Shown one piece after another: positions 3,583 through 19,401 of a stretch of DNA of 19,401 nt; within the stretch, counting starts at the first letter, position 1, and each line of letters starts with the position of its first letter. A program made the translations under genes and the position numbers. The stretch lies in UHGV virus genome UHGV-0140152. One strand, given 5' to 3'. The notes beneath the pieces are model-generated. The model did no database searches and was not told where the DNA came from. It worked only from the letters and a program-made list of their open reading frames with translations. The DNA comes from a virus.

Positions 3583-3661
3583 TACCCGATAATAATTTGT
3601 TTTCTACCTTATCTGATTTGTGAAAATGATTTCACTGAAGCAACTTAATAAGGAAAAAATC

Positions 3662-4036
3662 ATGGGACTTGATATCTACATCGAGACGCAGCCAAAAAAC
3701 GATCTGAATAACGATACATCCAGATGGCAGGTTGGCTACTTCCGCAAGTTCAATGCGCTTGTATCGTGGGTGGAGAATAACGTTGGTATGGTTGAGAACT
3801 GTGAACTTGTGGAGCTTAACCGTGAGCATTTGCTGAAGCTGAAAGCAGACCTGGATTGTCTCAATAAAGAAAATTGCAGTGAAATAATGCCCACAATGGA
3901 AGGATTCTTTTTCGGCAGTCAGGAGTACGACGACTTCTACTGGAGAGACGTGGATGAACTGAGAGAACTCACGGAACAGCTGATAGAGAATCACGATTTC
4001 GACAATAACAGACTGACGTTCTGCGCCTGGTGGTAA
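3662..4036 (+). CDS. hypothetical protein (124 aa, MGLDIYIETQPKND...)
   Basis: Track ORF 3620..4036; preferred start is the ATG at 3662, 7 nt after AAGGA. Preceded by the operator-like aataatttgttttct. Confidence 0.65.
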   Translation: MGLDIYIETQPKNDLNNDTSRWQVGYFRKFNALVSWVENNVGMVENCELVELNREHLLKLKADLDCLNKENCSEIMPTMEGFFFGSQEYDDFYWRDVDELRELTEQLIENHDFDNNRLTFCAWW

Positions 4037-4038
4037 AT

Positions 4039-4182
4039 ATGGGCGATTTCAAGAAAACCCTGAAGGAAAGAACCGAAATGGTCAGAAAGCAAAACGCCTC
4101 TTCTGTCATCAGATACGCAAGGCAGTTCAGCAAAAACAACAGACAGATTGAAGAGCAAATCAAATCAGTCATAGTCAGATAA
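4039..4182 (+). CDS. possible small basic protein (47 aa) coupled to the upstream gene
   Basis: ATG 2 nt after the upstream stop, open to TAA, followed immediately by a strong terminator. Weak RBS; not in the track. Confidence 0.25.
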   Translation: MGDFKKTLKERTEMVRKQNASSVIRYARQFSKNNRQIEEQIKSVIVR

Positions 4183-4187
4183 GAAAC

Positions 4188-4229
4188 AGCGCCAGAAAAG
4201 CCAACGGGAGCGATTCTGGCGCTTTTTTT
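4188..4229 (+). terminator. intrinsic terminator
   Basis: AGCGCCAGAA ...TTCTGGCGCT 10-bp stem followed by TTTTTTT. Confidence 0.8.
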
Positions 4230-4317
4230 GTTCTGGTGACAGGATTACTCCTGTCAGGGCTGTTTCTTTTGTTACAGACGCTATCATGAAGACAAAAAGA
4301 GAAGGAAGATCACTGAT

Positions 4318-4425
4318 AGGTCTGGGAGTTACTTCAGTTTTAAAAATGCCTGCTTCCGTATATATAAATAATAAGTAACTTAATAAATATATACGGAAGC
4401 AGGCACTGTTAAGACTCCAGAAGTG
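4318..4425. repeat. structured palindromic element, copy 1 (17-bp stem, conserved AT-rich 22-nt loop)
   Basis: CCTGCTTCCGTATATAT-aaataataagtaacttaataa-ATATATACGGAAGCAGG with flanking ggtctgggag. A near-identical copy lies at 19171-19267. Confidence 0.7.
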
Positions 4426-4656
4426 AGCAAAAATCAACCTAAAAAGACACTGAACTCACCAGAATAAACTTAACCAGCCAGTACAGGCGCTGAAGTCTTC
4501 CGTAGCAGGCATCAAAGGGAATTTCGTTAAGGTACTTCAGCATAGGGTGGATGGATATCAAACCGTATGTGTATTGCCTCTCGTTTGATGCCTCCTGAAG
4601 CACCTTTAAAAGTTTTTTAAAAGCGCTACAATGACTATCAGATAAGAGGAGGTTTT

Positions 4657-4908
4657 ATGAGCTATCAAATTCTGACGACGACAGCAGCCAGCATTACTGA
4701 GCTGAAAAGAAACCCTATGGGCACTGTAGCTGAAGGTGAGGGGGAGGCCGTCGCAATCCTGAACCGGAATGAACCCGCGTTTTACTGTGTCCCACCAGAA
4801 CTTTATGCCTACTATCGGGAACTCGCCGAGGACGCTGAACTTAACGCGATTGCAGATGAAAGAATGAAAGAACCGGACATTGTGAAGGTTAACCTGAATG
4901 ACCTATGA
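4657..4908 (+). CDS. stbD: type II antitoxin, Phd/YefM (StbD-like) family
   Basis: 83-aa protein MSYQILTTTAASITELKRNP... resembling StbD/Phd antitoxins; GAGGAGG RBS; overlaps the downstream RelE-like toxin gene. Confidence 0.8.
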   Translation: MSYQILTTTAASITELKRNPMGTVAEGEGEAVAILNRNEPAFYCVPPELYAYYRELAEDAELNAIADERMKEPDIVKVNLNDL

Positions 4909-5179
4909 GCTGGCATTTGAACGCAGGGCACTGAAAGAATGGCAGAAGCTCGGCCACACTGTTCGTGAACAATTCAAAAAGAAGCTGTCAGAGCGCCTGA
5001 AAAATCCACATGTCCCCGCAGCCAGGCTATATGGTCATACTGACCGTTACAAAATTAAGCTTCGCGCATCCGGTTACAGGCTCGTTTATCAGGTAATTGA
5101 TGAGAAGGTTGTTTTGCTTGTCATTGCTGTAGGAAAAAGGGAAAGCAGCGAAGTCTATCACACGGCTGATACTCGTTAG
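4898..5179 (+). CDS. stbE: type II toxin, RelE/StbE family mRNA interferase
   Basis: 93-aa protein with ...RALKEWQKLG..., ...YKIKLRASGYRLVYQVIDEKVV..., ...VGKRESSEVY..., closely matching E. coli RelE as I recall it. Classic coupled antitoxin-toxin arrangement. Confidence 0.85.
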   Translation: MTYELAFERRALKEWQKLGHTVREQFKKKLSERLKNPHVPAARLYGHTDRYKIKLRASGYRLVYQVIDEKVVLLVIAVGKRESSEVYHTADTR

Positions 5180-5204
5180 CAAAGTGCGCCTTATATCCTC
5201 GCCT

Positions 5205-5440
5205 GTTGACTAAATCTCATAATAACCTGAGGTCAATTTCTTCTGTTTGTGACCTCAGGTTAATTTCCTTTATTTATAACCTTAACTTATTAGGCTGCAT
5301 TTTATTCCGCGTCATCGCTTCATTATTTATGTATATGGCGACCTTATTTAATTACGCCCACCTGAACTTACTTCTTTTCCGCCTGTTTCATTCAGCGATA
5401 ATTAACGCATCGAAACGAAACTAAACGAAAGGAGTTAAAA
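5205..5440 (+). promoter_or_regulatory. cassette leader 1 (homologous to 6200-6342)
   Basis: 12-bp inverted repeats aacctgaggtca / tgacctcaggtt, conserved block cctgaacttacttcttttccgcctgtttcattcagcgat and a conserved RBS context. Confidence 0.55.
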
Positions 5441-6160
5441 ATGAGTGCGCGTCTTAAGAAGCTTATCAAAAAGCGTAAATCTCTTAAAGAACATGCAGAA
5501 TTGATAAATTTAATTGAAAAACGTTTTCCAGTCATTTCGGATATTGAGGACTTCTATTGGGTGGAGAAATGTAAAGTTTGGGATGGCATTGATGATGTAA
5601 AAGATGTGGATGATTTTGTCAGCAAGTACAACCCAGACATTAACTACAAACTAGCTGATGATTTTGCTGGCTCGTCTAAAGATGATCCGCTTCCTGATTG
5701 GTTTAACATTGATGATTATCCTAGTTGCATGTGTACCACCTACACCAACAAAGATTTTAGTAAAGCGTGGTTTGCTATTGCTTATGGCTGTTATTTCAAT
5801 AAGTCCGACGGAAGCAAAAGACCATATTTTCTCGCTGAAATAGACTTAACCAGCGGAGAGATTACAGTACACGAAAACCACAGGAATCTAATGAAGCTTG
5901 TTGATAGCGTTCGCGTACTGGATACAGACGCCCAGCAATTAACGAACAATGCATGGTTCGGACTTGATGGAGTAAAAGGGGGTATCGAACTGATAATGGG
6001 TCATCTTTTAAATGAATACTCGGACTGGTATCATCCGCCACACAATCCGCTTGAGTCATTTGACGATCCGCTTGAGCCATTTGACGATCCGCTGAAGGAC
6101 TACATCGATGAACCAATATATATGATGGAATCTTTTCAATTAGATATGATTCCAGCATGA
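5441..6160 (+). CDS. highly acidic hypothetical protein (239 aa); distant paralog of 8856..9503
   Basis: Track ORF; AAGGAG RBS. Shares ...DFSKAWF...FLAEIDLTSGEITV... and NPLESFDD with the minus-strand protein at 8856..9503. Confidence 0.75.
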   Translation: MSARLKKLIKKRKSLKEHAELINLIEKRFPVISDIEDFYWVEKCKVWDGIDDVKDVDDFVSKYNPDINYKLADDFAGSSKDDPLPDWFNIDDYPSCMCTTYTNKDFSKAWFAIAYGCYFNKSDGSKRPYFLAEIDLTSGEITVHENHRNLMKLVDSVRVLDTDAQQLTNNAWFGLDGVKGGIELIMGHLLNEYSDWYHPPHNPLESFDDPLEPFDDPLKDYIDEPIYMMESFQLDMIPA

Positions 6161-6165
6161 CAAAC

Positions 6166-6197
6166 GCCACCAGTTAACGCTGGTGGCTTCAAGTTTT
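6166..6197 (+). terminator. intrinsic terminator
   Basis: GCCACCAG ttaacg CTGGTGGC followed by TTCAAGTTTT. Confidence 0.65.
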
Positions 6198-6199
6198 GC

Positions 6200-6342
6200 T
6201 CTCATCACCTCAGGTCAAATTTCCTCGTTTGCAACCTCAGGTCAATTTAAGAATGATATCACCTGTATCCCTGAACTTACTTCTTTTCTGCCTGTTTCAT
6301 TCAGCGATGATTATTACATCGAAAACAAACGAGGAATTAAAA
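6200..6342 (+). promoter_or_regulatory. cassette leader 2 (homologous to 5205-5440)
   Basis: Two acctcaggtcaa repeats, conserved block cctgaacttacttcttttctgcctgtttcattcagcgat and GAGGA RBS. Confidence 0.55.
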
Positions 6343-7269
6343 ATGAAACCAGTATTTTTGGGGCGAATTGATATTAGTGAATTGTTTTCAGTTAGAGATG
6401 GGTTCCAATATGACTGTGATTGCCTTGAACTTAATGGTCTTGAACGTGAATACAGATTGGCTATTGTGAATGATGGTAAGAAGACATTTTCTGTCGAATG
6501 TTTTGAAAATACTTACTTTAAGCAGGTGTTGAGAATAAGACAGCATGTGGAGATGTCAATTCGGGAAAACATCAAAAATAAATGTGAGTTTCTTGTGGTT
6601 AAAAATGAAGCAGATGAAATAAACTTTGTTACGTTCACTGATAGTGGTCGATTGGCTATGCTGGAGCTATTTCAGCTGATCGTTTCTAATAACAGTATAA
6701 CAGAAGCCTTGAACAGTCTTTCAACTATAGTATCAAGAGAAAGAGAAAACACTGGCGCTTTAATTGTAGAGGAGCTAGATGGAATACTCGAGAAGATCAA
6801 GAATAAAGAGCTGATTATAGAATATGGCAAGGAAAGTAGGAAAAATAATTTACATTCAGCTTTTCACTCCCCATATGTTGAGCGTTTGAATGGTTTGGCT
6901 GCTTTTGTTAATTTGGACTTTAATAGATTTTTTAGTTCTTTTTTTACAGAGTGTGGGCTTGTTATTGTTGAGGTAAATAATGAGAACGATGTCCCCAAAA
7001 TTATAGTACATTCGATGCCTGATATATCTCTCAATGAAATTGGGGACAAACTGGAGAATTTATACGATGTAAAAAGCATGGAAGAACTCATAGAGTATCT
7101 GGCCATAAATGCGGTAGCCATGGCTGATAATGATGTGTTTGGGGTTGGTGCACTGCATGAAGGTTTTCTTGACGCCCTTGAGCTTTACGGGACTGCTCGC
7201 TGGTTTCTGTCAGGATTAGTGGATGATGCACCTTTACTCATCAATACAGATTATTTTTATTCCAGTTGA
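6343..7269 (+). CDS. hypothetical protein (308 aa)
   Basis: In-frame ATG within track ORF 6196..7269, placed after the conserved leader and GAGGA RBS. No family recognised. Confidence 0.7.
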   Translation: MKPVFLGRIDISELFSVRDGFQYDCDCLELNGLEREYRLAIVNDGKKTFSVECFENTYFKQVLRIRQHVEMSIRENIKNKCEFLVVKNEADEINFVTFTDSGRLAMLELFQLIVSNNSITEALNSLSTIVSRERENTGALIVEELDGILEKIKNKELIIEYGKESRKNNLHSAFHSPYVERLNGLAAFVNLDFNRFFSSFFTECGLVIVEVNNENDVPKIIVHSMPDISLNEIGDKLENLYDVKSMEELIEYLAINAVAMADNDVFGVGALHEGFLDALELYGTARWFLSGLVDDAPLLINTDYFYSS

Positions 7270-7275
7270 AAACAA

Positions 7276-7300: not shown

Positions 7301-7472
7301 TGACCATCCTGTCTCCCGCAGGCTAAAAACACCAACCTCTTACCTCCAGGCAACCGACAAACCCACCTGTTCCCGTCCGGCTACCGCAACTTTCCACTTT
7401 GACGCCTTATTCGTACAACCATAATTAACACCAACAAGAGAACAATTTGTTATTTAGAATAAGGAATCAATC

Positions 7473-8801: not shown

Positions 8802-8823
8802 GCTTTAAAAACTCCTTTAAATG

Positions 8824-8841
8824 CGCCCATATTTGGGCGCA
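8824..8841. repeat. hairpin GCGCCCATATTTGGGCGC (identical copy at 9577-9594)
   Basis: Perfect 7-bp stem between the stop of 8856..9503 and the RBS of 8571..8801. Confidence 0.6.
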
Positions 8842-8855
8842 TGATTTATATGGTA

Positions 8856-9503
8856 TTATTCAAAATATGGAAATGCAGAATTTTCTTCATGATCTAATAC
8901 GAAAGTTTTTTCATTAATATAATTTGGCGCATTATCGCCAAATGATTCTAGTGGTTCGAGATGATTGAAATCATCTTTTTTAATAAAGTAGGATATATAA
9001 TAGATACCATCGTGTAAATCAGCCAAACCACACCAAATATAATAGCCAATAGGATAACATGCAGGACCACGATTCACATAAACTGTAATTTTTCCGCTTA
9101 ATAAATCCATCTCAGCAAAAAAAGCTAATCCGCTTTTTTCCTCTTCTCCTTCTTTTTCTCTGATTTTTCCGTTTAGAACGTCAGCACTTTGAATAAACCA
9201 CGCTCTAGTAAAATCCGCGTTAACATATGTAGCAAATTCGCCAAAGTCGCAATTTTTGCGCAAGTTGGGTAAATCCTCGATTAAATCGAGATTGATATTT
9301 AATTGCGCTGTATTTTCAGCAATAATTAGCTCTGCTTTCGTTAATTCCGTGTTATTAAATTCTGGCTTTTTTTCTGGTAATTTGTGCACTACTTCTTTGA
9401 TTTTGTCAGCGAATTTAATTTTTGATTTAATCAATGGAAGACGAGATTCAGCCATCTCTACGAAAGCAGAGATAAAAGATTCGCAAACAGTAAAAGTTTT
9501 CAT
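8856..9503 (-). CDS. hypothetical protein (215 aa); distant paralog of 5441..6160
   Basis: Track ORF; GAGGAA RBS. Shares ...DFTRAWF...FFAEMDLLSGKITV... and EPLESFGD with 5441..6160. Confidence 0.75.
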   Translation of the reverse strand: MKTFTVCESFISAFVEMAESRLPLIKSKIKFADKIKEVVHKLPEKKPEFNNTELTKAELIIAENTAQLNINLDLIEDLPNLRKNCDFGEFATYVNADFTRAWFIQSADVLNGKIREKEGEEEKSGLAFFAEMDLLSGKITVYVNRGPACYPIGYYIWCGLADLHDGIYYISYFIKKDDFNHLEPLESFGDNAPNYINEKTFVLDHEENSAFPYFE

Positions 9504-9536: not shown

Positions 9537-9594
9537 AATAAAGCTAATATTAGCTTTATTCCGAGTTTTATCTCATGCGCCCATATTTGGGCGC
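9537..9594. repeat. perfect 24-bp palindrome plus second copy of the GCGCCCATATTTGGGCGC hairpin
   Basis: AATAAAGCTAATATTAGCTTTATT (9537-9560) and gcgcccatatttgggcgc (9577-9594), between the genes at 9608..10258 and 8856..9503. Confidence 0.6.
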
Positions 9595-9607
9595 TTGATT
9601 CCATTAA

Positions 9608-10258
9608 TTACGCTTTAAAAGCATCAGCTAGATAATTGTAGAAATCTTTTTTAATGAAGCGATATTGTTGAGTACCAGCTTTGGCGCTTCCCATTCCTTT
9701 GACTTTCTCAACAAGTCCGAGACGTTCGCAAAGATTGATTAGCTGGTTAGCTTGAGTATAGCCAGCGTCTAAGCGTAAATCATTTGCTCGCTTAACTTCA
9801 TTCATTAAATCAAAAACAGCGCCATTAGTAAAAACTTCTACTTCGTCTTTGATCATGTGAACAAGTGCAAACACGCGTGATCCGCTCATATCGTCTTTGG
9901 AGTACTCGCATTTACCAGCTTTGATAGATTTAACCAGATAAACTAATTTTTCCAGTGAGTAACTGTTAGTCATCGCTTCGCGGAAAAACACTTCTGGTGC
10001 TTGTTTGCTTGCTTTAATCGCAAAGTAAAACACAGCAGACAATTTTTCGTCGTTAACAGCAGACAAAATGTTATTAGAGAAATATTTTAACTTTGTAGAA
10101 GCAGCGCGAAGATTATCTTTATCGTTTTTGGTCAGCGCGCCAGTGCTATTAAGAAGTTCATTCTTTTGCCCCAAGTCGTTAGCTTTTGCACCCAGCTCAG
10201 CAGCAACAATATTAGCAGCTTCAACGATGTTTTTTTTAGATAATATAATGTTGGTCAT
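9608..10258 (-). CDS. hypothetical protein (216 aa)
   Basis: Track ORF; AGGA RBS about 9 nt upstream on the minus strand. No family recognised. Confidence 0.7.
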   Translation of the reverse strand: MTNIILSKKNIVEAANIVAAELGAKANDLGQKNELLNSTGALTKNDKDNLRAASTKLKYFSNNILSAVNDEKLSAVFYFAIKASKQAPEVFFREAMTNSYSLEKLVYLVKSIKAGKCEYSKDDMSGSRVFALVHMIKDEVEVFTNGAVFDLMNEVKRANDLRLDAGYTQANQLINLCERLGLVEKVKGMGSAKAGTQQYRFIKKDFYNYLADAFKA

Positions 10259-10549: not shown

Positions 10550-11113
10550 TTAAAATGGAAGGATTCGGTCAACCCAATCGAAGAGAACAATCATTCTTGC
10601 ATGTTCCCTGATTTTCATCGTCACCTGACAAGCATCAACGCCTAACGACACTCCCTCTATTTCACGGCCATCCGCCATGTAGACCCTTATAGATCTGCCG
10701 TTTTGATGAGCTTTGCGACATATCTTAAAAAAGTCACGACGTGATGGCTGGTTGTTCACGTAGTCAGGATGTACGGTAAGCCTGTCCGCAAAGTCCCCAT
10801 CTACTTCTGGAGGTATAATCGTTTCTATAGAGCTAACTTTCCCAAGAGGAAGACGAACTCGACGCTCTTTGCTTCTTGGAACGGGTGATAGATCAAGTTT
10901 GTTGCGTGATGGTAGTGTTCCCTGTACATACATGTTGAATACCTGTCCATCTTCCATCGTGACTTTTACAGGAACAGAGTGTGCCCTCCAGAACATCAAG
11001 GTATGTTCCACATTAGAATAGTCTCGCGGCCATACTTCAGCCGGTATGCCGTATGTAATATCTTTCGTCGTCATATCATTATAAAGTGGTTGGCAATATG
11101 TCCATTGTACCAT
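10550..11113 (-). CDS. hypothetical protein (187 aa; possibly 174 aa from an internal ATG at about 11074)
   Basis: Track ORF. The 11113 start overlaps the lipoprotein gene by 35 nt; the alternative ATG lies a few nt after the lipoprotein stop. No clear RBS for either. Confidence 0.55.
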   Translation of the reverse strand: MVQWTYCQPLYNDMTTKDITYGIPAEVWPRDYSNVEHTLMFWRAHSVPVKVTMEDGQVFNMYVQGTLPSRNKLDLSPVPRSKERRVRLPLGKVSSIETIIPPEVDGDFADRLTVHPDYVNNQPSRRDFFKICRKAHQNGRSIRVYMADGREIEGVSLGVDACQVTMKIREHARMIVLFDWVDRILPF

Positions 11114-12066: not shown

Positions 12067-12152
12067 CTCCGGTTCTTAAGCATAGATAAGCCTACAAAAT
12101 TAATTCAGTCGATCAAGATCTTTTTTCAGCCGGAAGTTTATGTATCAAGAAG

Positions 12153-12168
12153 TGTGATCAAGTTCACA
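12153..12168. promoter_or_regulatory. perfect CRP-consensus-like palindrome TGTGA-N6-TCACA, about 95 bp upstream of 11515..12066
   Basis: tgtgatcaagttcaca inside a roughly 110-bp segment homologous to 13293-13415. Confidence 0.45.
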
Positions 12169-12311
12169 TACTGCTTTGCCAGAAGAATACCATATGCAAA
12201 ACATTCTATTGCTGTTAAAATTTAATCGTTCAGACATAAGGAAGCCCTATACCCTCGACAAATCTTTCTGGTATTGTCGAGGGCATGTTTCACATTTATA
12301 GGTAGATAGCG

Positions 12312-13292
12312 TTAATTGGTGTTTTTGTTCTTCTCTTTTTTGCTAATTTCATCACATGTAAGGTTCATTATGTCTATGTTTTCTTGCTTTTGAAGGTTGC
12401 CGACAATTTTTTTGCGCAATTCATAAAATCGCTCGCGTGGTATAGCTTCCTTGTTGCCGTTGATGTGAAGTATTGCGTGACAGCTAGGGCAGACGGCAAT
12501 CAGATCTGTTTTTGGGTTCACGCTTCGTGCATCTTCGCCTTGTGAAAGTGGGACGATGTGGTGAGCGTGTAGCAGCGTTTTCGTTTCTTTGCCGTCAATT
12601 TCCTTGCCGTATATTTCCGACATCGTTCTGCAACATAATTGACACCTGTAGTCTGCGTTTGCCAGAACGTCATTCCTTAACCCGGATACGCGGCTACGAT
12701 GTTGCGACTGGATTAATCTTGTTTCGCCCTCTATATATTCCTCAACTTCTTCTTTCTGGAGGTCGTAGCTGATTTCTTCTTGAGTCGGATGGACTTTTTT
12801 GTATAGAAGATCAAGATATTTAATGTCCTCTGTTATATATTTGGAATCCTCTAGCGAGGATATTTTTCCTGAGTCTATGTAGTCAATTAATGTAATAAGG
12901 AACATCTCTATCGATAGCCTGTTTTTAAAGGCAAACGAATATCCAAGATGTCTTCTATCTCCTGAATGAATTGGCGTCCAATGAGATTTCTCAATTTTTT
13001 GTGGTGTTACGCAGATACCTTTGCCGATATTGTTTACATGTTCCAATAATTGATAAACAGAATTAATGCGGTAAGCATGTGTTACTAAAGAATTTATTTT
13101 TCTTGTGCCGACGGAGGATTTTGTCATAACAACATGATGAGATATTTGTTTTTTTAAAATCAAATCATACGATGTAGCTTTTTGGTTTTCGCCTTTGTCG
13201 GTTTTTTTTATTAAATTTAGTTTTTTATTAGAGGCTATTTTCTCTATTTCTTCTCTAACTTCTTTTATCGTCATGTAAGTTTCTTTTGTCAT
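12312..13292 (-). CDS. HNH endonuclease, McrA-like C-terminal domain with an unrecognised N-terminal domain (326 aa)
   Basis: C-terminus YRCQLCC...LLHAHHIVPLSQGEDARSVNPKTDLIAVCPSCHAILH is an HNH motif with two Cys pairs, arranged like McrA. AT-rich gene. Confidence 0.8.
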   Translation of the reverse strand: MTKETYMTIKEVREEIEKIASNKKLNLIKKTDKGENQKATSYDLILKKQISHHVVMTKSSVGTRKINSLVTHAYRINSVYQLLEHVNNIGKGICVTPQKIEKSHWTPIHSGDRRHLGYSFAFKNRLSIEMFLITLIDYIDSGKISSLEDSKYITEDIKYLDLLYKKVHPTQEEISYDLQKEEVEEYIEGETRLIQSQHRSRVSGLRNDVLANADYRCQLCCRTMSEIYGKEIDGKETKTLLHAHHIVPLSQGEDARSVNPKTDLIAVCPSCHAILHINGNKEAIPRERFYELRKKIVGNLQKQENIDIMNLTCDEISKKEKNKNTN

Positions 13293-13390
13293 TATAATTC
13301 GACCTACTGGAATATCTTGATTTAAGAGGCTACAAATATCGTTCAGCCAATCAAGAAATTTTTTCAGCCGGAGGTTTGTACTTCAAAAAA

Positions 13391-13406
13391 TGTGATGAAT
13401 GTCACA
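13391..13406. promoter_or_regulatory. perfect CRP-consensus-like palindrome TGTGA-N6-TCACA, about 105 bp upstream of the HNH gene
   Basis: tgtgatgaatgtcaca within the duplicated promoter segment; on the minus strand it is followed by TTTTTT. Confidence 0.45.
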
Positions 13407-13431
13407 TGCAGGTGCGCTCATACACCTGCAT
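13404..13431 (-). terminator. hairpin after the stop of 13440..14006; likely terminator of the helicase operon
   Basis: CATGCAGGTG cgctcata CACCTGCATG, a perfect 10-bp stem, 9 nt past the stop codon. Confidence 0.5.
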
Positions 13432-18901: not shown

Positions 18902-19168
18902 ATGACGTTAACCGACAAACAAAAGGACATAATCAAAACGCTCAATCTCGGTTATGAGCGAGGTCATCTACTTGATCTGGACGAATTGCTTGAAGTTTTG
19001 CCGTACAAGACAACCAAGCAAAGTATCCAGTTCTCAATTCGCGCTCTGATAAAAAAGGGGCTGGTGGAGAAAGGGCATACGCGTCAACGCAGTGACAATC
19101 GCTATCACCGCCGGACTCTTGGGTTAACCACTTTAGGTCGAGCCAAAGCGAAGTTACTGGTGATGTAA
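18902..19168 (+). CDS. small basic protein, possible winged-helix DNA-binding regulator (88 aa)
   Basis: Track ORF; start 9 nt after the upstream stop; HTH-like segment TTKQSIQFSIRALIKKGLVEKG; last gene of the operon. Confidence 0.5.
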   Translation: MTLTDKQKDIIKTLNLGYERGHLLDLDELLEVLPYKTTKQSIQFSIRALIKKGLVEKGHTRQRSDNRYHRRTLGLTTLGRAKAKLLVM

Positions 19169-19170
19169 TC

Positions 19171-19267
19171 GGTCTGGGAGCTTATTTAAAGACCTGCTTC
19201 TGTATATATAAATAATAAGTAACTTAATAAATATATACGGAAGCAGGCTTAATAAGACATGCCCAGA
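19171..19267. repeat. structured palindromic element, copy 2
   Basis: ggtctgggag ... CCTGCTTCTGTATATAT-aaataataagtaacttaataa-ATATATACGGAAGCAGG. One C-to-T change in the left arm would keep a G-U pair in RNA. Confidence 0.7.
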
Positions 19268-19282
19268 TTCAATTAAACACAC

Positions 19283-19345
19283 CAGTAAACAAGTTGGTTA
19301 ATAGATGCAGTAAACAAGTTGTTTTAGAGCGCATGGACGCGCTCT
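19283..19345 (+). promoter_or_regulatory. direct repeats and operator-like palindromes upstream of the next gene
   Basis: cagtaaacaagttg twice; the second copy forms AAACAAGTTGTTT, identical to the palindrome at about 2686-2699. Followed by the hairpin AGAGCGC-atggac-GCGCTCT. Confidence 0.45.
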
Positions 19346-19364
19346 ATGTGTTTTAGAGGGATCT

Positions 19365-19401
19365 ATGACTGTCGAAAAAGACGAGGTGAAAACTCGCCTG
19401 A
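19365..19401 (+). CDS. 5' end of a gene running off the window (MTVEKDEVKTRL...)
   Basis: ATG 6 nt after GAGGG, open to the window end. Only 12 codons visible. Confidence 0.4.
   Translation, partial: MTVEKDEVKTRL

What the first reader, a model, noticed from the sequence alone, without database searches (positions are those of the whole stretch)
4318..4425. Roughly 85-100-bp structured palindromic element present twice, bracketing about 14.8 kb
Copies at 4318-4425 and 19171-19267 share a 17-bp stem, an identical 22-nt AT-rich loop and the flanking ggtctgggag. Neither is followed by a T-tract, so they are unlikely to be simple intrinsic terminators. As direct repeats they bracket the toxin-antitoxin pair, the cassettes and both candidate operons. 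They could be recombination or boundary sites of a sub-module, small RNA genes or processing sites.
Basis: seen in the sequence. Interest (0 to 1): 0.6.

Follow-up and report, generated by a model that had tools for sequence, protein, structure and literature searches.

The report
Repeated terminator-like palindrome of a phage-plasmid
The two hairpin copies are real, but they belong to a small family of near-identical palindromes found at fixed gene-module junctions in SSU5-like phage-plasmids, where they most likely stop or punctuate transcription rather than mark the ends of a mobile 14.8-kb island.

Summary
Two direct copies, 14,844 bp apart, share 18-nt inverted arms (GCCTGCTTCCGTATATAT), an identical 21-nt AT loop and GGTCTGGGAG. 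Copy 2 is really a nested palindrome of about 135 nt.

The window comes from an SSU5/pHCM2/pLF82-type phage-plasmid. The palindrome is specific to that family and never hits an E. coli chromosome. It occupies three syntenic intergenic positions:
- T: upstream of the small terminase gene (terS).
- P: between the par operon and the replicative helicase.
- M: downstream of the Dam methylase.

Copy 2 is the universal T copy. Copy 1 is a lineage-specific extra copy inside a 3.1-kb variable insert. They therefore do not delimit a 14.8-kb module.

Best reading: an RNA hairpin that ends or insulates transcription units.
- The P and M paralogues carry T-runs only on the transcribed strand.
- Published LF82 RNA-seq falls about 9- to 200-fold across the gap holding the P copy.
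- A divergent Klebsiella oxytoca relative has canonical terminators at all three positions.

Caveats:
- The two window copies lack a T-tract.
- The arms are more conserved than a terminator needs.
- The SSU5 phage record begins and ends inside the T copy, so a packaging or origin role is not excluded.

Moderately interesting; apparently undescribed.

The parts
4319..4425 (+). Copy 1 ('W' copy). Outer motif GGTCTGGGAG at 4319-4328, left arm 4348-4365, loop 4366-4386, right arm 4387-4404, outer partner CTCCAGA at 4415-4421.
   Evidence: It is lineage-specific, shared only with E. albertii p3RM15116-type plasmids at 98-99% identity. It lies inside the insert 4140-7273 that replaces Cyrano 97743-98258.
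19154..19289 (+). Copy 2 ('T' copy), full nested palindrome. Outermost arms TTACTGGTG 19154-19162 and CACCAGTAA 19280-19288. GGTCTGGG 19171-19178 pairs with CCCAGA 19262-19267. Inner arms 19192-19209 and 19231-19248, loop 19210-19230.
   Evidence: It is syntenic with the terS-upstream copy of SSU5, Cyrano, pHCM2 and 74 IMG/VR relatives.
18902..19168 (+). 88-aa gene (phrog_900, function unknown), the last gene of the ParB-like/ATPase operon. Its stop codon lies 2 nt before GGTCTGGGAG, and its last codons form the outermost left arm of copy 2.
19366..19401 (+). Start of the small terminase gene (terS), cut by the end of the window. It is the first gene of the virion module downstream of copy 2.
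19287..19355 (+). terS leader. Two operator-like AAACAAnTTGTTT motifs (19287, 19312), then a conserved hairpin at 19325-19346 followed by TGTGTTTTAG, just before the ribosome-binding site.
   Evidence: The same layout is present in K. oxytoca and Acinetobacter relatives.
4176..4300 (+). Canonical intrinsic terminator(s) upstream of copy 1, after ORF 3620-4036. One is GGGAGCG...CGCTTTTTTT. A second is GACAGG/CCTGTC followed by a T-rich tail.
   Evidence: searches (the first; I22), and direct reading of the sequence (the second).
4657..5179 (+). Phd/YefM-like antitoxin and ParE toxin pair downstream of copy 1. A sigma-70-like promoter lies at 4605-4632.

Best explanation
The element is a family-specific, multi-copy intergenic palindrome of SSU5-like phage-plasmids. 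It most likely acts at the RNA level. When the almost unidirectionally transcribed genome is read, the element folds into a very stable hairpin at the end of a transcription unit.

At the P and M positions the hairpin is followed by a U-run and works as an intrinsic terminator or insulator. It separates plasmid-maintenance genes that are on in the lysogen from silent lytic genes.

The two copies in this window (T and W) are the same hairpin without the U-run. They are inferred to act as a leaky terminator or pause, as a 3'-end-protecting hairpin, or as a double-stranded RNA (RNase III-type) processing site. The T copy would separate the ParB-like operon from the terS late-gene leader. The W copy sits ahead of the toxin-antitoxin operon.

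Copies in one genome are kept alike by gene conversion.

Shown here: the anatomy, the distribution, the strand-specific U-runs of the paralogues, and a drop in expression across one paralogue.
Inferred: that the two window copies have the same kind of activity, and the way they act.
For: 1. All copies are intergenic and lie between co-directional genes, at three conserved junctions in Cyrano, SSU5 and pHCM2.
2. Hairpin potential is strong, with z between -4.6 and -10.
3. In 5 of 6 sequence variants each, the P and M copies have 4-5 T directly after the right arm on the transcribed strand and none on the other strand.
4. In the published LF82 RNA-seq (PMC9928086, S1 Table), CYRAN_28/29/30 read 50/89/55 and CYRAN_31 reads 6. 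In condition B6 the log2 values are 10.4 against 2.6. The P copy is the only strong hairpin in that 193-bp gap.
5. CYRAN_123 to terS falls 2-3.5-fold across the T copy.
6. In the divergent K. oxytoca pCAV1099-111 (TerS 61% identical), the same three positions hold other hairpins with canonical T-tracts. Its T-site hairpin looks like a diverged version of this palindrome, followed by T8.
7. More distant relatives (Moellerella, Xenorhabdus, a K. pneumoniae type) also have a hairpin or inverted repeat of unrelated sequence between the 88-aa gene and terS.
8. There is no match to any Rfam family. No ORF over the element is annotated as a gene in the relatives examined.
Against: - The two window copies have no T-run on the + strand. 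Copy 1 has one only on the minus strand.
- Copy 1 follows two ordinary terminators, so it is not needed to end the upstream gene.
- A separate terminator-like hairpin already precedes terS.
- The 16-nt arms are nearly invariant across E. coli, Salmonella, Klebsiella, Enterobacter and Yersinia copies while the flanks diverge. A plain terminator does not require that.
- Compensatory change outside the arms is weak: 3 pairs in RNAalifold, and permutation p between 0.01 and 0.6.
- G.U asymmetry favours the + strand at T and P but the minus strand at M.
- The RNA-seq evidence is at gene level and concerns the P paralogue in another genome, not this window.
Confidence: 0.5

Rival explanations
1. It is a DNA-level cis site for the lytic cycle. 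The T copy would be the packaging start (pac) or a virion-end site recognised by terminase, or the palindromes would be lytic replication origins. Inverted protein-binding arms flank a roughly 35-bp region that is almost pure A+T and could unwind or be cut. The P, M and W copies would be secondary sites, or duplicates later re-used as terminators.
For: - The SSU5 phage record (virion-derived) begins and ends inside the T copy, at the junction of loop and right arm. Joined end to end, it reproduces the intact palindrome.
- The site lies 100-210 bp upstream of terS, where pac and cos sites usually lie.
- The arms are conserved as sequence, not only as structure.
- TCTGG/CCAGA motifs flank the core symmetrically.
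- An Acinetobacter relative (TerS 33% identical) has one large nested palindrome near terS with weak similarity, p about 0.003-0.01.
- Extra initiation sites would be harmless for a headful packager.
Against: - The Cyrano record start is not independent. That study could not detect Cyrano virions in its virome by read coverage, and the record was made by re-annotating pLF82.
- No other phage record of the family starts at this site.
- Long palindromes also break assemblies, and isolate contigs end near the element.
- TerL is of the Terminase_6N/Terminase_3 type, which does not point to lambda- or HK97-like cos ends.
- Relatives with the same replication and packaging genes carry unrelated hairpins or plain terminators at this position.
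- GC skew shows no inflection at any copy.
Confidence: 0.15
2. It is a binding-site array for a phage-plasmid-encoded DNA-binding protein. Candidates are the two ParB_N proteins with their ATPases just upstream, or a global regulator. This would resemble the four dispersed SopB centromere repeats of N15, or the KorB operators of RK2.
For: - The sites are dyad-symmetric, few, dispersed and sequence-conserved on a phage-plasmid.
- Two ParB_N genes, an ABC-type ATPase and a 296-aa protein form a conserved operon ending at the T copy.
Against: - No protein-DNA data exist.
- Distant relatives keep the ParB-like operon but not the palindrome.
- The strand-specific T-runs at P and M are not explained.
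Confidence: 0.1
3. It is a selfish or neutral repeat. It would be a REP/ERIC/MITE-like palindrome that spread within the phage-plasmid, is homogenised by gene conversion, and serves passively as a recombination joint between gene modules.
For: - A new copy (W) appeared in one lineage.
- Window copies T and W share the loop variant CTTAATAA. It is seen in no T copy of another genome in alignment A1, and otherwise only in the E. albertii W copy and one P copy (L190).
- T, M and P copies of the same isolates share other derived loop variants.
- The left flank of the P copy is unrelated between genomes in 90% of pairs, while the core and right flank are conserved.
Against: - The three positions are conserved across genera.
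- No terminal repeats with target duplications were seen.
- No chromosomal copies exist.
- T-runs are retained at P and M.
Confidence: 0.12
4. One reading: the two direct repeats are recombination or boundary sites of an excisable 14.8-kb sub-module.
For: The copies are in direct orientation and share a core of about 57 bp at 98% identity.
Against: - Copy 2 is universal and copy 1 is lineage-specific.
- The interval holds conserved backbone genes (UvsW-like helicase, ParB-like operon) that are syntenic in all relatives.
- No recombinase gene lies in the window, and no relative lacks exactly this interval.
Confidence: 0.02
5. It is a small RNA gene.
For: A stable hairpin with conserved sequence.
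Against: - No promoter-like site was found at either copy.
- No Rfam family matches.
- It is a near-perfect palindrome with no strand-consistent signal.
Confidence: 0.04

Closest known systems
Rho-independent (intrinsic) transcription terminators
   Same: A GC-based stem at the end of a transcription unit. The P and M paralogues have the U-run on the transcribed strand only, and expression drops across P.
   Different: The stem is 18-28 bp, against the usual 5-14. The same sequence is re-used at 3-4 sites and conserved across genera. The two window copies lack the U-run.
RNase III processing hairpins of phage polycistronic mRNAs (T7 R sites, lambda sib and N-leader). Comparison from general knowledge.
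   Same: Several related long hairpins with internal loops lie between co-directional genes, with no U-tract. Predicted helices are at least 20 bp long.
   Different: No cleavage data exist. The element is a near-perfect DNA palindrome, so it folds on both strands. The strand preference is inconsistent between positions.
REP/BIME and ERIC/IRU repeated intergenic palindromes of enterobacteria. Comparison from general knowledge.
   Same: Imperfect palindromes in transcribed intergenic regions, kept alike by concerted evolution, with effects on mRNA ends.
   Different: There are only 3-4 copies. They are confined to one phage-plasmid family, absent from E. coli chromosomes, and sit at fixed syntenic positions.
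Dispersed centromere repeats of phage-plasmid N15 (SopB sites IR1-4) and KorB operators of RK2. Comparison from general knowledge.
   Same: A few dyad-symmetric sites are scattered over a phage-plasmid, and ParB-family genes are present.
   Different: Binding is untested. The palindrome is far longer and has an AT-rich centre. Relatives keep the ParB-like genes but not the site.
P1 pac, lambda cos and SPP1 pac packaging sites. Comparison from general knowledge.
   Same: The position just upstream of terS, the AT-rich centre flanked by repeated short motifs, and the SSU5 record ends inside it.
   Different: The element is multi-copy. There is no independent evidence for termini. TerL is of the T4/SPP1-like Pfam types.

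Membership tests
Intrinsic terminator | Stable GC-containing stem-loop at the 3' end of a transcription unit | tested here: met
   z = -7.8 and -9.4. Copy 2 starts 2 nt after a stop codon.
Intrinsic terminator | U/T-run directly after the stem on the transcribed strand | tested here: not met
   The window copies have at most 2-3 T on the + strand. Copy 1 has T5 only on the minus strand. The feature is met by the P and M paralogues elsewhere.
Intrinsic terminator | Transcript level falls across the site | tested here: inconclusive
   The drop is about 9- to 200-fold across the P paralogue in LF82 and only 2-3.5-fold across the T copy. The data are at gene level and come from another genome.
RNase III processing site | Roughly 20 bp or more of near-continuous double-stranded RNA inside a polycistronic transcript | tested here: met
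   The predicted helix is 17-19 bp plus flanking stems. This is in silico only.
RNase III processing site | Cleavage that depends on rnc | not testable with these tools
   Needs RNA end mapping in wild type and an rnc mutant.
REP/ERIC/MITE-like repeat | Many copies dispersed over the host genome | tested here: not met
   0 places on E. coli chromosomes and 513 on plasmids. There are 3 copies per complete phage-plasmid. In species-representative genomes it occurs only on phage-plasmid-sized contigs.
REP/ERIC/MITE-like repeat | Terminal inverted repeats with target-site duplication, and empty sites | tested here: inconclusive
   No duplication was seen at copy 1. No empty-site comparison is possible because the whole 3.1-kb region differs.
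cos/pac packaging site | Adjacent to the terminase genes | tested here: met
   Copy 2 ends about 80-120 bp before terS.
cos/pac packaging site | Coincides with virion DNA ends or a coverage step | tested here: inconclusive
   The SSU5 record ends lie inside the element. Cyrano is not independent, and no other phage record starts there.
cos/pac packaging site | Unique site in the genome (a requirement for cos) | tested here: not met
   There are 3 copies in SSU5, Cyrano and pHCM2 and 2 in this window.
Site-specific recombination or cassette boundary (attC-like) | Cognate recombinase nearby, and the interval variable or absent in relatives | tested here: not met
   No recombinase gene lies in the window. 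The interval holds conserved syntenic backbone genes.
Dispersed ParB/KorB-type binding sites | Bound by a ParB-family protein of the element | not testable with these tools
   ParB_N genes are present. There are no binding data.
Known RNA family (Rfam 15) | Score at or above a family's gathering threshold | tested here: not met
   There are no hits at gathering threshold. The only hits are generic miRNA-precursor-like hairpins far below threshold.

The most novel reading that the evidence does not exclude
The terS-proximal copy is the physical packaging-initiation or end site of SSU5-type virions, and the whole family is a set of designed DNA palindromes. Conserved inverted arms would surround an unwinding or cleavage-prone AT core, and the phage's own T4-like recombination and replication machinery (SbcCD-, RuvC-, UvsW-, UvsX/Y-like genes) or terminase would use them to start lytic replication or packaging at several places on a circular plasmid prophage. 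The terminator activity at P and M would then be secondary.
Probability: 0.12. Interest if true: 0.65.

Novelty: new member of a known kind. Interest (0 to 1): 0.36.

Why it matters
SSU5-like phage-plasmids (pHCM2 of S. Typhi, pMT1 of Y. pestis, pLF82/Cyrano, and many Klebsiella and Enterobacter plasmids) are common and clinically relevant, yet their regulation is almost unknown. Their genomes are transcribed almost entirely in one direction. Plasmid-maintenance genes must therefore stay on while neighbouring lytic genes stay off.

A conserved, re-used insulator hairpin at the module junctions would be a simple answer. It would also be a practical landmark for annotating these plasmids, for engineering them, and for explaining where accessory cargo is swapped in. 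If the terS copy instead proves to be the packaging site, it would define how these elements are packaged and how they transduce.

Tried and rejected
- Rfam at gathering threshold and at permissive E-values gave only generic hairpin noise.
- Seven literature searches (SSU5 or pHCM2 with cos, cohesive ends, PhageTerm, palindrome, inverted repeat, headful) found no description of the element or of SSU5 termini. The Gilcrease & Casjens 2018 paper and the SSU5 genome announcement are not held.
- Covariation: RNAalifold on 38 T copies gave only 3 doubly changed pairs. My first impression of widespread compensatory change in the spacers did not survive a cognate-versus-non-cognate duplex permutation test, with p from 0.01 to 0.6 depending on the segment.
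- Strand asymmetry as a test of RNA against DNA: T and P favour the + strand and M the minus strand, and there are few independent events, so it is uninformative.
- A replication-strand explanation: cumulative GC skew rises monotonically with no inflection at any copy.
- The cos reading lost support. TerL belongs to the Terminase_6N/Terminase_3 families, the Cyrano record start is not independent, and other phage records do not start there.
- The 'places per record' counts of search_dna_similar over-count because a palindrome matches on both strands. My own BLAST gives 3 copies per genome.
- The idea that the 62-kb E. albertii plasmid arose by deletion between two copies is rejected. The shared sequence breaks off inside the helicase gene, not at a copy.

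Full report
**Observation**

Both copies exist as described.

- Copy 1 has perfect 18-nt arms at 4348-4365 and 4387-4404 around a 21-nt loop.
- Copy 2 has arms at 19192-19209 and 19231-19248, with one G.T and one terminal A.C, and the identical loop.
- The repeat finder reports a 61-nt direct repeat at 95% identity, 14,844 bp apart.
- The arm pattern occurs four times against 0.01 expected by chance.
- GGTCTGGGAG precedes both copies, but it is not significant on its own.
- Folding shows that copy 2 is larger than reported. It is a nested palindrome of about 135 nt at 19154-19289. Its outermost left arm is formed by the last codons of the upstream 88-aa gene. It folds at -56.8 kcal/mol with z = -9.4.
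- Copy 1 folds at -46.4 kcal/mol with z = -7.8. DNA energy parameters give the same picture.

**Source and distribution**

The window is 92-93% identical over about 70% of its length to ~110-kb E. coli plasmids of the SSU5/pHCM2/pLF82 phage-plasmid group.

- The element hits 578-666 PLSDB plasmids from Escherichia, Klebsiella, Enterobacter, Yersinia (pMT1), Salmonella (pHCM2), Citrobacter and Cronobacter.
- It hits a handful of SSU5-like phage records.
- In 5,426 complete E. coli genomes it hits only plasmids: 513 places on plasmids and 0 on chromosomes.
- A degenerate two-arm pattern scanned over one genome per species finds it only on phage-plasmid-sized contigs of Kluyvera, Buttiauxella and Y. 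pestis, and on a mis-binned MAG. The other matches are chance palindromes.

**Positions**

My own BLAST of complete genomes gives three copies each in Cyrano, SSU5 and pHCM2, always at the same places:

- T: between the 88-aa gene and terS.
- P: between the par region (ParA, CYRAN_29/30) and CYRAN_31 plus the DnaB-like helicase.
- M: just after the Dam methylase.

All neighbouring genes are co-directional.

Window copy 2 is the T copy. Copy 1 ('W') is found only here and in 62-kb E. albertii plasmids. Relative to Cyrano it lies about 180 bp inside a 3.1-kb replacement (window 4140-7273 against Cyrano 97743-98258). That replacement also brings two ordinary terminators, a Phd/ParE pair and two ORFs.

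The 14.8-kb interval contains backbone genes that are syntenic even in distant relatives. The 'bracketed sub-module' reading therefore fails.

**Anatomy across about 117 distinct copies**

- The inner arms CCTGCTTCCGTATATA are almost invariant at all positions and in all genera.
- In most genomes the loop is itself palindromic (TAATAAGT-n-ACTTATTA), so the core is a near-perfect 57-bp palindrome with an almost pure A+T centre.
- The flanks carry TCTGG on the left and CCAGA on the right.
- Cores are more conserved than flanks.
- The left flank of the P copy is unrelated between genomes in 90% of pairs, while its right flank is conserved. This copy therefore sits at a mosaic joint.
- Copies within one genome share derived loop variants. 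Window T and W share CTTAATAA. T, M and P copies of the same isolates share TATATTAAATAATAAAT. This indicates gene conversion or recent duplication.

**Structure or sequence?**

RNAalifold finds only three pairs with changes on both sides. A permutation test of cognate against non-cognate flank pairing is weak, with p from 0.01 to 0.6. Selection for pairing outside the arms is therefore not demonstrated. G.U asymmetry favours the + strand at T and P and the minus strand at M. With few independent mutational events this is not decisive.

**Evidence for a transcriptional role**

1. The P and M copies carry 4-5 T immediately after the right arm on the transcribed strand in 5 of 6 variants each, and never on the other strand. 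T copies have none. The W copy has T5 on the minus strand only.
2. In the published LF82 transcriptome (PMC9928086, S1 Table), CYRAN_28/29/30 average 50/89/55 and CYRAN_31 averages 6. In one condition the log2 values are 10.4 against 2.6. The P copy is the only strong hairpin in that 193-bp gap.
3. Across the T copy the drop is 2-3.5-fold.
4. In K. oxytoca pCAV1099-111 (TerS 61% identical), the three syntenic positions hold different hairpins with canonical T-tracts. The one at the T site looks like a diverged version of this palindrome, followed by T8.
5. Moellerella, Xenorhabdus and a K. pneumoniae type also have a hairpin or an AT-rich inverted repeat of unrelated sequence at the T site.

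Together these points make 'hairpin that ends or insulates a transcription unit' the best-supported function for the family. For the two window copies, which lack a U-run, it is an inference. They may be leaky terminators, 3'-end stabilisers or double-stranded RNA processing sites.

**The unexplained point**

The SSU5 record, and the Cyrano record one base away, begin and end inside the T copy at the junction of loop and right arm.

- The Cyrano record was made by re-annotating pLF82. The authors could not detect Cyrano virions by read coverage, so its start is not independent.
- No other phage record starts there.
- Palindromes break assemblies.
- TerL matches Terminase_6N/Terminase_3.

A cos site is therefore unlikely. 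A pac site or a lytic origin at T cannot be excluded. The strong sequence conservation of the arms fits such a role, as does a weakly similar single palindrome near terS in an Acinetobacter relative.

**Comparison with known systems**

No Rfam family matches, and no paper I could search describes the element.

- It works most like an intrinsic terminator or insulator, and like phage intergenic processing hairpins.
- It resembles REP/ERIC repeats in being a re-used palindrome, but it is confined to one phage-plasmid family.
- It fails the U-tract criterion for the two window copies, the uniqueness criterion for cos, and the criteria for a recombination boundary.

**Verdict**

This is a real, conserved and apparently undescribed element of an ordinary general kind. 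It is of moderate interest, with a minority chance of being a packaging or replication site.

Noticed in passing
window 211, 262, 2687, 19312 (exact); 940, 2136, 3590, 7440, 13087, 14325, 19287 (up to 2 mismatches): A 13-bp palindrome (G)AAAACAAnTTGTTT recurs 11 times in the window and 27 times in Cyrano. In the exact copies shown with flanks it lies a few tens of nt upstream of a start codon, in some cases after a GATAAT-like -10 element. It looks like the operator of a global repressor, or an RNA operator in 5' leaders. The Acinetobacter relative has its own equivalent, TArTAAGCGCTTAyTA, 16 times against 1.2 expected.
   Followed up: partly
window 19325-19355: A conserved hairpin plus T-run (TAGAGCGCATGGACGCGCTCTA TGTGTTTTAG) sits directly before the terS ribosome-binding site. 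The same layout, with changed stem sequences, is present in SSU5, K. oxytoca and Acinetobacter relatives. It suggests that the late operon is controlled by attenuation or antitermination.
   Followed up: partly
window 10550-11113 (-): By synteny this ORF corresponds to a FljA-like gene (Pfam Flag1_repress, an RNA-binding translational repressor of flagellin in Salmonella, with a weak Hfq-like tail). The gene is conserved in synteny even in the Moellerella, Xenorhabdus and K. grimontii relatives. It is a candidate partner for the repeated leader motif.
   Followed up: no
L006-L008 (SSU5) and L003-L005 (Cyrano) record ends; equivalent to window 19229/19230: Both linear phage records are cut inside the T copy, at the junction of loop and right arm. 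This is either a real virion or pac end, or an assembly break at a palindrome.
   Followed up: partly
window 5361-5421, 6270-6330, 7384-7444: A 61-nt direct repeat (89% and 64% identity) lies upstream of three successive ORFs in and just after the variable insert. It looks like a re-used promoter or leader unit for small cargo genes (family D1).
   Followed up: no
window 8821-8846 and 9575-9600: A second repeated palindrome, ATGCGCCCATATTTGGGCGCATGA (96% identical copies), follows two minus-strand genes (8856-9503, 9608-10258). It is probably a duplicated terminator (D20/I12).
   Followed up: no
window 12089-12169 and 13327-13407: An 81-nt direct repeat at 77% identity flanks the minus-strand ORF 12312-13292 (D6).
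   Followed up: no
window 4497-4510: CTTCCGTAGCAGGC, about 90 bp downstream of copy 1, reads like the inner part of a left arm fused to the outer part of a right arm. It could be a collapsed remnant of another copy, or chance.
   Followed up: no
L236-L238 (K. oxytoca pCAV1099-111) 56250-56300 and 108523-108575: The P- and M-site terminators of this divergent relative share their own ~50-nt left-flank repeat (CCCTTAATTAAAAGATTTTAAAAAGAGCTTTAAATACTATC...). Re-using one sequence at these junctions is therefore a recurring habit of the group.
   Followed up: no
L211, L218 (MAG 'Bacillota bacterium OH_SDB_141'): Two contigs of this MAG carry T- and P-class copies matching enterobacterial phage-plasmid copies. 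This is probably a binning error in the public MAG.
   Followed up: no
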